Shown: positions 24,601-30,600 of the stretch, piece by piece
Position numbering within the stretch: the stretch's first letter is position 1
Layout of the letters: every line of letters starts with the position of its first letter
DNA from: Octopus vulgaris
Taxonomy: Eukaryota
Assembly (NCBI GenBank): GCA_951406725.2
Contig: OX597825.1
Span: 496,001-560,000, forward strand
Reading direction: 5' to 3'
Length of the DNA stretch: 64,000 nucleotides
The notes under the pieces: model-generated
Told to the model about the DNA's origin: nothing
The model's input: the letters and a program-made list of their open reading frames with translations, nothing else
The model's database searches: none
Made by a program: the position numbers and the translations under genes

Positions 24601-27600
24601 CATATTTAGTCATTAATGAAATTAAAATTCTATCCATTTACTGCTTAATTCAAAACTATCTTTTTTTTTTTGGTTAAAATTTGATCTATAATGAATGTCT
24701 CTCTCCTAATTTTTCTAGCAACAACCATGCTCAAATGGTGATTTTCACATGCCACTGGGACAGGTGCCAATCAGGTGGTACTAGCATTGGCCACAACAAT
24801 GACTTCACTTGACTCAACAGGTCATCGCAAGCGCAGTTTATTGCGCAATGATTGAAGGCTACTCTTAAATGGACTGGTTATGCTGCACTGGCATAGGCCA
24901 TGTTTATGGTCTCACTTGGCTTGCCAGGTCTTCTCAAGCACAGCATATTTCCAAAGGTCTCGGTCACTTGTCATCGCCTCTGTGAGGCCCAACGTTCAAA
25001 GGTCGTGCTTCACCTTCACATCTCAAGTCTTCTTGGGTCTACCTCTTCTACAGGTTCCCTCTACTGCTAGGGTGTGACATTTTTCACACAGCTGTCCTCA
25101 TCCATACGTAAACACATGACCATACCAGTACAATGGCTTCTGTAGCACACCCCCATTTGATGCTTCTTATGTCCAACTTTTCTCTCAGGCTATTCTTATT
25201 CTAGCAGCTACACTCTCAGAGCAACCACCTCCACTACCAACTTGGTCACCTACGTAATAGAAGCTATCAACTACTTCTAGTTTTTTTTTTCCCCTGGCAC
25301 TTGATGGAAGCTGTTTTCTGCACATTTTCAGTGTTTATTGCCCCTGTGCATCTGCCACACACAAAAACTATCTTCCCAGTTAACATTCCTTTGATATTGC
25401 TGCACCTCTTATGTGTCCATAGCTTGCACTGGGTACATCTTATGGAGTTTCTACCTATGCCTTTTTTACAGATCGAGCAAGGCCATCTACCTGAAGGGAT
25501 TTGTGAATTGTCTGCCTTCCTACTTATTAGGACTTTGGGTTTTGCTAGATTGACTGTAAGGCCCTTCAATTCTAGACCTTGCAGAACACATGAAACTTCT
25601 CTAGTTCTGATAGTGACTCAGCAATTAGAGAAAGGTCATTAGCATAGAGGAGCTCCTAGGGGCATCCTGTCTTGAATTCTTTTACACTCCTTTACAATTA
25701 TCAGATTATGTTAAAGAAGAGTCCCAAACATATAATGAGTTTGAGTTTTTGTCTATCAAATCCACTCATAACACTTTGATTGGCATGGAACTATAGTAAA
25801 AAAGACTTGCCAAATGTGTTACACTGTGGGATCGAGCCTGCAACCATATGGTTGGGAAGCAAACTTCTTACCACAGAGCCATGCCTGCACCTATGTAAAA
25901 TTTTGACTCCAAAAATAACATCACTTCTGAATCTCATTCTCTAACCGTTCACCCTTAACTTTTACAAAAGAAAGAGAAAAAACAGCAGCTGTTCAGTTAC
26001 AAAAGCAATGTAGACCTTATTAAATTAGGATGTTGATCCTTTCCTTCCAAAGAAAAGACATAAATTATATAAAATAAAAAAACAAAAACAATCTCTGAAT
26101 TACATACTTTATACCAATTCTTGTTTCTATCCTGGGCCATTTTAAAGCTGTCTAAAGCTTTTGCAATTGAGCTATCATCAATACCGTTTAATTCGAGTAA
26201 CCAATCTCCCTGTTTCAAGTAGCATCTGGAACAAATTTGAAGATAATTTGAAAAAATAATTACAAAATAAAACTGTTACCATTTCCAAAGATAAATTCGA
26301 ACATTTATTTTTTATCAATGAATTCAGTAAAAGTTGTTTGAACCTTTTTATTGCCAAATTCCCATTTTCTATATTTTTCATCATCATCATTGTTTAACGT
26401 CCGCTTTCCATGCTAGCATGGGTTGGACAATTTTGACTGAGGGCTAGCGAACCAGATGGCTGCACCAGGCTCCAATCTTGATCTGGCAGAGTTTTTAGAG
26501 CTGGGTGTCCTTCCTAATGCCATCCACTCCGAGAGTGTAGCAGGTGCTTTTACATGCCACCAGCATGAGGGCCAGTCAGGCAGTACTGGCTTTAGCCACA
26601 CTCAAATGGTGCTTTTTATGTGCCACCAGCACAGGAGCCAGTCGGGCGGTACTGGCAATGATTTCGCTCAAATCGTTTTACACATGCCACTGGCACAGGT
26701 GCCAGTAAGGCGACGTTGGTAACGATCACGCTCGAATGATGCCCTTTTACGTGCCACTGACACGGAAGCCAGTTGGCTGCTCTGGCAACGATCACCCTCG
26801 TATGGTGCTCTTTGCACCCCGCTAGCACGGATGCCAGTCGTCGAATTTGATTTTGATTTCACTCGCCTCAAAAGGTCTTCGCAAGCAGAGTTTAGTGACC
26901 AAAGAAGGAAAAGGTACGCATAAGCGGGCTGGTTACGCTCCTGGCATAGGCCACAGGTTATGGTTTCATTTGGCTTGCCGGGTCTTCACAAGCAGAGTTT
27001 AGTGACCAAAGAAGGAAAAGGTACGCATAAGCGGGCTGGTTACGCTCCTGGCATAGGCCACAGGTTATGGTCTCATTTGGCTTGCCGGGTCTTCACAAGC
27101 AGAGTTTAGTGACCAAAGAAGGAAAAGGTACGCATAAGCGGGCTGGTTACGCTCCTGGCATAGGCCACAGGTTATGGTCTCATTTGGCTTGCCGGGTCTT
27201 CACAAGCAGAGTTTAGTGACCAAAGAAGGAAAAGGTACGCATAAGCGGGCTGGTTACGCTCCTGGCATAGGCCACAGGTTATGGTCTCATTTGGCTTGCC
27301 GGGTCTTCACAAGCAGAGTTTAGTGACCAAAGAAGGAAAAGGTACGCATAAGCGGGCTGGTTACGCTCCTGGCATAGGCCACAGGTTATGGTCTCATTTG
27401 GCTTGCCGGGTCTTCACAAGCAGAGTTTAGTGACCAAAGAAGGAAAAGGTACGCATAAGCGGGCTGGTTACGCTCCTGGCATAGGCCACAGGTTATGGTC
27501 TCATTTGGCTTGCCGGGTCTTCACAAGCAGAGTTTAGTGACCAAAGAAGGAAAAGGTACGCATAAGCGGGCTGGTTACGCTCCTGGCATAGGCCACAGGT

Positions 27601-30600
27601 TATGGTCTCATTTGGCTTGCCGGGTCTTCACAAGCAGAGTTTAGTGACCAAAGAAGGAAAAGGTACGCATAAGCGGGCTGGTTACGCTCCTGGCATAGGC
27701 CACAGGTTATGGTCTCATTTGGCTTGCCGGGTCTTCACAAGCAGAGTTTAGTGACCAAAGAAGGAAAAGGTACGCATAAGCGGGCTGGTTACGCTCCTGG
27801 CATAGGCCACAGGTTATGGTCTCATTTGGCTTGCCGGGTCTTCACAAGCAGAGTTTAGTGACCAAAGAAGGAAAAGGTACGCATAAGCGGGCTGGTTACG
27901 CTCCTGGCATAGGCCACAGGTTATGGTCTCATTTGGCTTGCCGGGTCTTCACAAGCAGAGTTTAGTGACCAAAGAAGGAAAAGGTACGCATAAGCGGGCT
28001 GGTTACGCTCCTGGCATAGGCCACAGGTTATGGTCTCATTTGGCTTGCCGGGTCTTCACAAGCAGAGTTTAGTGACCAAAGAAGGAAAAGGTACGCATAA
28101 GCGGGCTGGTTACGCTCCTGGCATAGGCCACAGGTTATGGTCTCATTTGGCTTGCCGGGTCTTCACAAGCAGAGTTTAGTGACCAAAGAAGGAAAAGGTA
28201 CGCATAAGCGGGCTGGTTACGCTCCTGGCATAGGCCACAGGTTATGGTCTCATTTGGCTTGCCGGGTCTTCACAAGCAGAGTTTAGTGACCAAAGAAGGA
28301 AAAGGTACGCATAAGCGGGCTGGTTACGCTCCTGGCATAGGCCACAGGTTATGGTCTCATTTGGCTTGCCGGGTCTTCACAAGCAGAGTTTAGTGACCAA
28401 AGAAGGAAAAGGTACGCATAAGCGGGCTGGTTACGCTCCTGGCATAGGCCACAGGTTATGGTCTCATTTGGCTTGCCGGGTCTTCACAAGCAGAGTTTAG
28501 TGACCAAAGAAGGAAAAGGTACGCATAAGCGGGCTGGTTACGCTCCTGGCATAGGCCACAGGTTATGGTCTCATTTGGCTTGCCGGGTCTTCTTAAGCAC
28601 AGTTTTCTATATTTTTGTTTTGTATTATTTCAATAGTCTTCCAAACATACTTTTTCCACACTCATTGGAGTACGAATTGCTCCTCACAAACTCATGAGAT
28701 GGTTGTGAGATATAAGCAGTTTGGAATAAGAACTGAAAAAGCAACGAATGAACGTGCAATGTGCATCTGAACACTGGATTCATATATAAAGGAAGAGAAG
28801 AATAAAAACGTAATGTGCAGGTCAAAGTAAAACAGAAGAAGAGAATAAAGCAAGTTATATAATGGTCAGCATGCTATGTCTGACACCACTATCACGCAAT
28901 TGTCTAACATAAAATCATCCAGTTATAATAGAACCAATGTTTTACTTGTTCATCTACTATAGTGACTACATAAATCTATATATATCTCTCTCTATATAAA
29001 CAGTTTGTCTGTGCGTTTTCTGTGTGTCTGTTTTCTCGTACCCTCACTCTGACCACGGCTTTCAACCGATTCTGATGAAACTTGACACACACATAGCCCA
29101 ATGTCATAATTCAAAACTAACGCAGCGAAAATTTTGAAAAGTTCCCCCAGTTCTGAAAAAGATCGATAAATTCGACATGGGGTCGAGAATCAGAAACACA
29201 AACCACAGACCGTCTAGGGGACGCAACTCCACCTTTTTTAACTCTCAAAAAAATTTACCATCATTTTTTCCCCATTTTTTTGCTATAACTCTCTAAAAAT
29301 GTTTTATAGTTATTTCCCTTACAAACCTGAGCAACGCCGGGCGATACTGCTAGTATATATATAAAGCTGAAGTTGTCTGTGTATGGCAGGTTTTGTAGCC
29401 TTCAACTAACACAATTATCTCCGAGACCCTGCGATGCAAGTTGACCAAAATTGAGGGTATAATAGAAGGCTTGCTCTTCATTTCGTAGAAGATAAAATTT
29501 AAATCAGACCATGTTAACACCAAAAATTATTTACATCAAAAATGTGCTTTTTTTCTATGAAAATCCCTATTTTTTACAATTTTTTTTACTGCTGTGTTGC
29601 CATTTTTCAGTGTATTTCAACCAGAAAAATGTTCACTTAAAGAAAATAACAAGCGACATAATACAAAATTTTTACTTTTCAAAAATTCCAATTCTAAAGG
29701 TTCGAAACAAACCCAAGCAACGCCAGGCGATACTGCTAGTTTGATATAAATTAAAAACACCTCATTTTCCTTATAAAATTTATTTGAAAATTAAAGAGAA
29801 AAAAAAAAAAAAAAGACTGCCCAGTTCAAAAGTTTGCAATGGAAATTCTCAGCTCTAACTTTTTGATGTTACAGAAACAGCAATCTTTTGCTATCTTTAG
29901 AGACAAATTCAGAAAGCAGAAATAATATACTGGAATTGGTTCCCCTTACACCTGCCCCAATTCTCTGCTGAATCAAAACATTCAACTTTCTTATATCACT
30001 ATCCAAGCCTAAACCTATGGATGTGACTTCATGCAATGATTTACAATATTTCCCAGCACACAAGTCAACATAGAATATAGTGTAAGCATTCAAACACCAT
30101 CACCATCTTTCAAAATTCTGCTGCATTCCACATGGAATTTCTGGTCCTCCAAACTCATCTTGATGTTAACCCACCTTTCTTTTTTTGGCTGTAAATTTTG
30201 GTCTGCAAAATTCAACTTGTTGAAATCCTGTATATTCAGGTATGCAACATAAAACAATTAAAAAGAAAACCAAAAAAAAAAAGGATCTTACCTGGCTAAT
30301 AGTTTACGAAGTTCAGTGACAGCAGCCGCATCTCCAGTGGATAGCAGGACTTCACTCTGTCGTTGGGTTTGATGGATAAATTGTTGCAAGGCGGCAAAAC
30401 TGTCTTGCTGTATAATTAATGAAAACAGATGAGAATTTAGATTGAATTTTTGATGAGTATGTTACGAAAGTTCTTTAAGCTAGAGTAGCTGTGTGGTCAG
30501 TAGCTTGCTTACCAACCACATGGTTCTGGGTTCAGTCCCACTGCGTGGCACTTTGGGCAAGTGTCTTCTACTATAGCCTTGGGCTGACCAAAACCTTGTG

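What the first reader, a model, noticed from the sequence alone, without database searches (positions are those of the whole stretch)
26379..28602. 16 x 107-bp near-perfect array built from the 5'-terminal segment of a TSD-bounded RTE insertion
Seen: the insert is bounded by a 14-bp TSD (TTTTCTATATTTTT), and its 5'-most 107 nt (end of the RTE ORF plus start of the 3' UTR) are reiterated 16 times almost without variation. The monomer is single-copy in sibling elements (~3640-3760, ~10711-10833, ~57140-57260). It is bounded by an imperfect direct repeat, GGTCTTCgcAAGCAgAG internally and GGTCTTCttAAGCAcAG at the end, and every junction is the same hybrid GGTCTTCacAAGCAgAG. Inference: the array arose by repeated RT realignment or rolling-circle copying during insertion, or by very recent microhomology-seeded expansion. 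Either way it would be a LINE giving rise to a satellite/VNTR inside an mTOR intron.
Basis: partly seen in the sequence, partly recalled or inferred. Interest (0 to 1): 0.72.

Follow-up and report, generated by a model that had tools for sequence, protein, structure and literature searches.

The report
Young minisatellite inside old LINE fragment
A broken jumping-gene fragment in an intron of the mTOR growth gene carries 16 head-to-tail copies of a 107-base piece of itself, which likely multiplied long after the fragment landed, by ordinary DNA copying slips of a kind that is common in this genome.

Summary
In detail: a 14-bp target-site duplication brackets a 5'-truncated, (GAT)n-tailed LINE fragment in an mTOR intron, and its ORF-end/3'UTR 107-mer is repeated 16 times; units 2-16 are identical. 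The junction is present in one public run at about 10 times flank depth, so it is not a one- or two-unit assembly artefact. The reverse-transcriptase (RT) reading is not supported. The element body carries at least 7 private changes in 478 sites against 0 in 1,605 array bases, so the 15 identical units are far younger than the insertion. The junction occurs at this locus only, although 571 places keep both arms. Two other runs hold the insertion's 5' end but show no junction contig. The 'hybrid' A is a common CpG-type change of the UTR arm. The arms are relics of an old 107-nt duplication in the family. Near-perfect ~100-bp arrays from neighbouring parts of such elements occur at several other loci, some internal to the element. 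Best reading: a homology-seeded tandem duplication, then recent local expansion. An RT origin of the first dimer alone is not excluded. The scan noted a similar post-insertion RTE 3'UTR array elsewhere in this genome.

The parts
26365..26378 (.). Target-site duplication, left copy (14 bp)
26379..26390 (-). (GAT)n 3' tail of the LINE fragment
   Evidence: sequence
26391..26873 (-). 3'UTR body, with the family's degenerate 66-bp internal repeats; at least 7 private substitutions in 478 scored sites
26874..26980 (-). Unit 1: keeps the family-type G at position 8 and has a rare T at position 92; its first 17 nt are the UTR-side arm
26981..28585 (-). Units 2-16: fifteen identical 107-mers (ORF end plus start of 3'UTR), each with A at position 8
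   Evidence: junction contig in run X1
28586..28602 (-). ORF-side arm (17 nt) ending at the 5' truncation point; carries a private C-to-T at 28594
28603..28616 (.). Target-site duplication, right copy
   Evidence: spanned by 0-difference contigs in X1, X2, X5
26105..26225 (-). mTOR FAT-domain exon downstream of the host intron (acceptor about 153 nt from the element's tail); the low coordinate is that of the stretch searched, not a mapped donor
30292..30410 (-). Likely mTOR exon upstream of the host intron (intron about 26226-30291); upper boundary approximate
   Evidence: translation and splice motif; no Pfam hit; likeness to mTOR is recalled

Best explanation
The array is a 107-bp minisatellite inside a 5'-truncated LINE fragment in an mTOR intron, and it likely grew after the insertion by DNA-level duplication between two imperfect direct repeats followed by recent local expansion. 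Step 1 (shown): a 619-nt fragment (3'UTR plus ORF end) inserted with a 14-bp TSD. Step 2 (inferred): misalignment of the two arms 107 nt apart, relics of an old duplication in the family with a 7-nt exact core, gave a dimer by replication slippage or unequal exchange. Step 3 (inferred from the pattern of variants): the second unit, carrying a CpG-type G-to-A, was amplified to 15 identical copies recently, by slippage, unequal crossover or conversion. The array is likely neutral and likely variable in length between animals.
For: Age gap: 7 private changes in 478 scored body sites (1.46%, conservative) against 0 in 1,605 bases of units 2-16; 23.5 expected, P(0) about 6e-11. No young sister copy: best relatives 83-86% over the body (40 of 10,747 candidates scored) and 93% over 201 nt (40 of 3,169). 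Single locus: 15 of 15 exact junction matches lie here; 571 places keep both arm words, and the agnostic tandem pattern finds this junction only here; 0 of 78 sibling loci have a head-to-tail 107-mer. Runs X1, X2, X5 hold the element's 5' end, TSD and flank with 0 differences (3 of 4 runs laid); the 52-nt junction contig is laid in X1 only (1 of 4 runs; depth 850 against 85.1 for the flank contig). Arms are homeologous: 26 of 40 nt alike here, and a 60-75-nt match at spacing 106-107 in three more distant copies, above all 500 shuffles. Other arrays from the adjoining UTR stretch: 111 x 22.5, 108 x 3.9, 96 x 4.3, 113 x about 48; those on C1, C13 and the dimer on C14 start inside the element. 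A control word from the tail gives 456 tandem matches, including 100 x 19.3 and 101 x 26.9 at 98%.
Against: The two differences between unit 1 and units 2-16 are compatible with a dimer as old as the insertion (P(<=2)=0.40 at 1.46%, 0.02 at 3.5%), so step 2 may have happened at insertion. The array starts 17 nt from the 5' truncation point, two other copies of 75 truncate at the same base, and one sibling (L094) has a 19-nt duplication at its 5' end. Private changes could in part come from an unsampled source element. Missing junction contigs in X2, X5 and X6 show no absence: contigs drop rare variants, and X1 may be the assembly's source. No long read spanning the array was seen, so 16 is the assembly's count; contig depth is no copy number.
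Confidence: 0.72

Rival explanations
1. The RT made only the first dimer: near the end of cDNA synthesis the nascent strand slipped back from the ORF-side arm to the UTR-side arm, copied 107 nt again and stopped. DNA-level expansion of unit 2 came much later.
For: Array abuts the 5' truncation; unit 1 versus unit 2 divergence fits the insertion's age at the low rate; 3 of 76 copies end at the same base; a 19-nt 5'-terminal duplication in L094. PMC3389668 (sections read) suggests that retrotransposition can start TE-derived repeats.
Against: No second copy with this junction among 571 places with both arms. No junction contig in X2 or X5, which hold the insertion (weak). Truncation points are dense in this stretch (13 within 59 nt below the arm, 6 within 20 nt above it, of 75), so the position may be chance.
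Confidence: 0.2
2. All 16 units were written at insertion by repeated RT realignment or rolling-circle copying (DRT2-like concatemer synthesis by a LINE RT).
For: Uniform junctions and 5'-terminal position inside one TSD.
Against: Zero divergence among 15 units against at least 1.46% in the body; all 15 junctions share a derived A that unit 1 lacks; no second locus; no structured-RNA or ribozyme family in the unit (Rfam; folding z 0.18 and 1.04 with DNA parameters). It needs complete later homogenisation, which is itself a DNA-level process.
Confidence: 0.04
3. The array is an assembly artefact, or its length is inflated.
For: Perfect identity of 15 units; junction seen in one run only, which may be the source; depth ratio about 10 rather than 15.
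Against: The junction exists as a 0-difference contig at about 10 times the flank contig's depth in X1; unit 1 and the terminal arm keep distinct bases; similar near-perfect arrays are common in this assembly.
Confidence: 0.04

Closest known systems
TE-derived minisatellites flanked by short direct repeats (Ahmed and Liang 2012, PMC3389668; parts 1-3 of 4 of the text read)
   Same: A piece of a retroelement repeated in place, single locus, flanked by a direct repeat with a 7-nt core (the commonest length in that survey), expanded by local duplication. The paper counts 7,276 such repeats in human, 300 with flanking direct repeats and 136 with a partial Alu duplicated at a 5' end.
   Different: Invertebrate LINE rather than Alu, L1 or ERV; 15 units with no variation, so younger than the long arrays they describe; the arms are relics of an older duplication in the element.
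Microhomology-mediated tandem duplication, Haber-Louis model (PMC13167724; abstract and section 10 read)
   Same: Single-copy segment between microhomology arms goes 1x to 2x and then expands.
   Different: Expansion beyond 3x is rare in their microbial data; here it reaches 16x, and the arms are homeologous over about 40 nt.
Satellites from retroelement 3'UTRs: PisTR-A from Ogre, cetacean common satellite from the L1 3' end, chicken HinfI from CR1 ORF2/3'UTR (review PMC9659126; passages read)
   Same: Monomer taken from the ORF end/3'UTR of a retroelement.
   Different: Those are large dispersed satellites; this is one 1.7-kb array still inside its TSD, with no sign of spread.
DRT2 rolling-circle reverse transcription (PMC12039810; search listing and start of abstract only)
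   Same: Head-to-tail copies of a ~100-nt template with one fixed junction.
   Different: No structured template RNA found, no repeat of the junction at independent events, and the units postdate the insertion.

Membership tests
TE-derived minisatellite / microhomology-mediated tandem duplication | Unit lies between direct-repeat arms in the single-copy parent | tested here: met
   7-nt exact core, 14 of 17 and 26 of 40 alike; 571 places keep both arm words
TE-derived minisatellite / microhomology-mediated tandem duplication | Unit is single-copy in sibling elements | tested here: met
   73 of 78 loci have one hit; the other 5 are inversions, separate elements or a 27-nt duplication
TE-derived minisatellite / microhomology-mediated tandem duplication | Units match each other better than any other locus | tested here: met
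   100% within the array; best outside 99.07% among the loci fetched
TE-derived minisatellite / microhomology-mediated tandem duplication | Copy number varies between individuals | tested here: inconclusive
   Junction contig in 1 of 4 runs; insertion end in 3 of 4 runs; contigs show presence, not absence
RTE-clade non-LTR retrotransposon | ORF with AP endonuclease and RT | tested here: inconclusive
   This fragment has only the ORF end. A relative at 19420-21700 hits RVT_1 above cut-off and the endonuclease families below cut-off; L146 links its C-terminal part to the monomer
RTE-clade non-LTR retrotransposon | Short tandem-repeat 3' tail, TSD, 5' truncation | tested here: met
   (GAT)n tail, 14-bp TSD, variable truncation points
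RTE-clade non-LTR retrotransposon | Placement in the RTE clade by RT phylogeny | not tested
RT-made concatemer (DRT2-like or rolling-circle) | Units as old as the insertion | tested here: not met
   0 of 1,605 against 7 of 478
RT-made concatemer (DRT2-like or rolling-circle) | Same junction recurs at independent events | tested here: not met
   15 of 15 exact matches at one locus; 12 of the 69 other two-mismatch hits fetched, none tandem
Ribozyme-bearing tandem retroelements (retrozymes; family recalled) | Self-cleaving ribozyme in each monomer | tested here: not met
   Rfam at E<=10 over 26300-27300: 3 weak snoRNA matches at the TSD/tail, none in the unit
Rodent-L1-type 5' promoter monomer arrays (recalled; raised by earlier scan notes) | Monomers form the 5'UTR of full-length elements | tested here: not met
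   The monomer is ORF end plus 3'UTR

The most novel reading that the evidence does not exclude
This LINE family's RT tends to stop and slip back at a degenerate 107-nt internal repeat at the ORF end, writing tandem seeds into new insertions; the adjoining 3'UTR stretch is then a recurrent nursery of minisatellites (107, 111, 108, 96, 113 and 43-bp arrays), giving a datable series from dimer to multi-kilobase array in one family.
Probability: 0.15. Interest if true: 0.5.

Novelty: new member of a known kind. Interest (0 to 1): 0.2.

Why it matters
As found, it matters little: one more TE-derived minisatellite, though a clean one, since TSD, parent monomer, both arms and two diagnostic bases let the order of events be read. 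It could serve as a length marker in an mTOR intron (the extra units add 1,605 nt to an intron of about 4.1 kb). It would matter more if long reads tied such seeds to reverse transcription itself, because how TE-derived repeats start is mostly unexplained (PMC3389668 accounts for 6%).

Tried and rejected
Reciprocal deletion between the arms: a pattern for it gave 3 matches, but all 3 are more distant copies whose UTR arm still resembles the ORF end, not deletions. Ribozyme or structured RNA in the unit: none. Tandem ORF-end arrays in copies with the C variant of the ORF-end word: 28 matches at three places, none this family by the sequence shown. First age estimate, 8.2% from the majority of 29 copies, was rejected as inflated by subfamily differences; the tiled count replaces it. 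Background sample: 40 arbitrary 10-kb blocks held 1 array with period >=40, >=4 copies and >=95% identity, and 16 neighbouring blocks held 0, so long perfect arrays are uncommon per kilobase though numerous genome-wide; the monomer had 0 hits in the 400 kb and 5 in the neighbouring 160 kb. No RNA holder was listed, so expression and splicing were not examined. X4 had no cover of most of the right flank; this is not read as absence. All runs laid were contigs, not raw reads. Rows dropped before counts: L063 (mistyped place), L110 (same place as L067); L056 and L057 share flanks and are not independent. Paper searches for RT-made 5' tandem arrays in LINE insertions gave 3 papers and 0; R2/R1 junction passages (PMC2718515) describe microhomologies and target duplications, not such arrays. 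PMC13282606 (passages) lists active RTE families in an octopus but nothing on arrays. No supplements were read. A sequence look-up in earlier scan notes found nothing.
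Full report
Observation. A 14-bp direct repeat at 26365-26378 and 28603-28616 brackets 2,224 nt that read, on the minus strand, ORF end, 3'UTR and (GAT)n tail. Bases 26874-28585 are sixteen 107-mers, followed by 17 nt; units 2-16 are identical and unit 1 differs at positions 8 and 92. Without the 15 extra units the insert is a 619-nt 5'-truncated LINE fragment. Four siblings in the window have one monomer each. 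The host gene is mTOR on the minus strand: the exon at 26105-26227 matches mTOR chains, and 4 of 6 candidate exons hit the FAT domain. The intron runs about 26226-30291. The label RTE is recalled, not tested by phylogeny; a relative in the window has an RT hit above cut-off and endonuclease hits below it, and L146 joins that ORF's C-terminal part to the monomer.

Is it real? Of 24 runs listed I laid five, all as contigs. X1, X2 and X5 hold one 0-difference contig from the element's last 30-33 nt through the TSD into the flank (depths 85.1, 22, 43.1); X4 does not cover most of the flank. X1 also holds a 52-nt contig across the unit-unit junction at depth 850, ten times its flank contig. So the junction exists in many copies in at least that run, which may be the assembly's source. 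In X2, X5 and X6 no junction-spanning piece is listed, and the depth over 28503-28512 in X5 and X6 is fully accounted for by family contigs that begin at the arm. This suggests shorter alleles but does not show them, because contigs drop rare variants. The count of 16 was not checked in long reads.

The junction. It is not a blend. The exact match between the arms is GGTCTTC; after it the junction is UTR-type. Its A at position 8 is a G-to-A change in a CpG, present in 17 of 76 family copies, whereas unit 1 keeps the majority G (58 of 76). Unit 1's T at position 92 is rare (3 of 65) and absent from units 2-16. Hence the 15 identical units descend from one unit that differed from unit 1 at two sites. 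The arms are not chance matches: a search for a reciprocal deletion returned three more distant copies in which the UTR arm still repeats the ORF end over 60-75 nt at spacing 106-107, above all 500 shuffles. In this copy 26 of 40 nt remain alike. The family's 3'UTR therefore begins with the relic of an old 107-nt duplication (inference).

Timing. The best whole-body relatives are 83-86% identical (40 of 10,747 candidates scored), and 93% over a 201-nt part (40 of 3,169). Counting only bases shared by at most 3% of 78 fetched loci gives 7 private changes in 478 scored sites, 1.46%. At that rate 15 units laid down at insertion would carry about 23.5 changes; they carry none (P about 6e-11). The caveat is an unsampled source element. 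The two differences between unit 1 and the rest are compatible with a dimer as old as the insertion at the low rate (P=0.40) and hardly at 3.5% (P=0.02). So the expansion is recent, and the date of the first duplication is open.

Uniqueness. The exact junction pattern has 15 matches in 2.8 Gb, all here. With two mismatches there are 84; of the 69 others I fetched 12, none tandem. 571 places keep both arm words at the right spacing. A pattern blind to the ORF side (one UTR 15-mer twice, period 85-115) has 90 matches: 15 here, 22 on C1, 3 on C13, 45 on C16, and one each on C2, C5, C14, C28, C29. These are arrays of 111 x 22.5 (99%), 108 x 3.9, 96 x 4.3, about 113 x 48 followed by 43 x 19 (present twice, 100 kb apart), and dimers. 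They have other breakpoints; seven share one junction motif, which suggests a dimer inherited from a source element and expanded locally in some copies (inference). On C1, C13 and C14 the repeat starts inside the element; on C2, C5, C28 and C29 the element appears truncated within the repeat. A control word from the tail gives 456 tandem matches, including 100 x 19.3 and 101 x 26.9; some of these belong to related elements that share the word. Arrays of this size and purity are thus a recurrent product in this genome, though rare per kilobase (1 in 400 kb).

Points for an RT role. The array begins 17 nt from the 5' truncation; L112 and the sibling at 10711 end at the same base (3 of 76) without being close relatives (86% and 73%); L094 has a 19-nt duplication at its 5' end. 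Truncations are dense in this stretch, so this is weak. It keeps alive an RT-made dimer (0.2), not an RT-made 16-mer (0.04). Rfam finds nothing in the unit and it folds no better than shuffles.

Mechanism. Shown: insertion with TSD, arms, unit variants, single locus, age gap. Inferred: misalignment of the homeologous arms gave a dimer, and slippage, unequal crossover or conversion then amplified unit 2. Likely neutral; no RNA holder was listed, so splicing was not examined.

Comparison. This is the pattern described for human TE-derived minisatellites (PMC3389668, parts 1-3 of 4 read) and for microhomology-mediated tandem duplication (PMC13167724, abstract and section 10); satellites from LINE 3' ends are reviewed in PMC9659126 (passages). 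DRT2 (PMC12039810, listing only) is an analogy that fails the tests of age and recurrence. My searches found no paper on this array or on RT-made 5' arrays of this kind; subscription journals are mostly not covered. An earlier, unreviewed scan note (e1-9877186) reached a similar post-insertion reading for another RTE 3'UTR array in this genome; I had formed my reading before seeing it and did not test its locus.

Verdict. Real, tidy and ordinary: a new member of a known kind. Interest 0.2.

Noticed in passing
L210, L211, L212 (G000:C9:91936976, C18:1006168, C18:7051565): More distant family copies in which the 3'UTR begins with a clear second copy of the ORF end at spacing 106-107; evidence of an old duplication in the family that supplied the arms.
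   Followed up: yes
L140-L143 (G000:C16:58507201-58513424 and about 58610998-58615853): About 48 x 113-bp array from the same ORF-end/UTR stretch with a different breakpoint, directly followed by 19 x 43 bp from the next stretch; the block occurs twice 100 kb apart near the contig end, each next to a 100-N gap region, so one may be a duplicated haplotype.
   Followed up: partly
L138, L139, L144-L148 (C1, C13, C2, C5, C14, C28, C29): Seven loci share one 3'UTR junction motif with 2 to 22.5 units of 90-111 bp: likely an inherited dimer expanded to different lengths.
   Followed up: partly
window 10711-10833, L112 (G000:C12:461 kb) and window 28602: Three copies within 65 kb are 5'-truncated at the same base, 10 nt beyond the ORF-side arm core, yet are not close relatives.
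   Followed up: partly
L094; L102 and L108: L094 has a 19-nt tandem duplication at its 5' end; L102 and L108 share an internal 27-nt duplication just after the stop codon.
   Followed up: partly
window 10629-10748: The sibling at 10711 has its own 55-nt tandem duplication that includes the UTR-side arm.
   Followed up: no
window 23902-24290: A 142-nt, 99% inverted repeat with a 105-nt spacer, also matching 5139-5289 at 99%; possibly a young MITE-like element.
   Followed up: no
L066, L070, L076: Family copies with inverted pieces next to the monomer, as expected from twin-priming-type 5' inversions (recalled).
   Followed up: no
L206-L209 (C7, C8, C14, C2): Arrays of 99-102 bp with 6 to 27 units at 93-98% built from a piece that shares the family's tail word.
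   Followed up: partly
window 19420-21700: A long, broken endonuclease-RT element of the same family on the plus strand inside another mTOR intron.
   Followed up: partly
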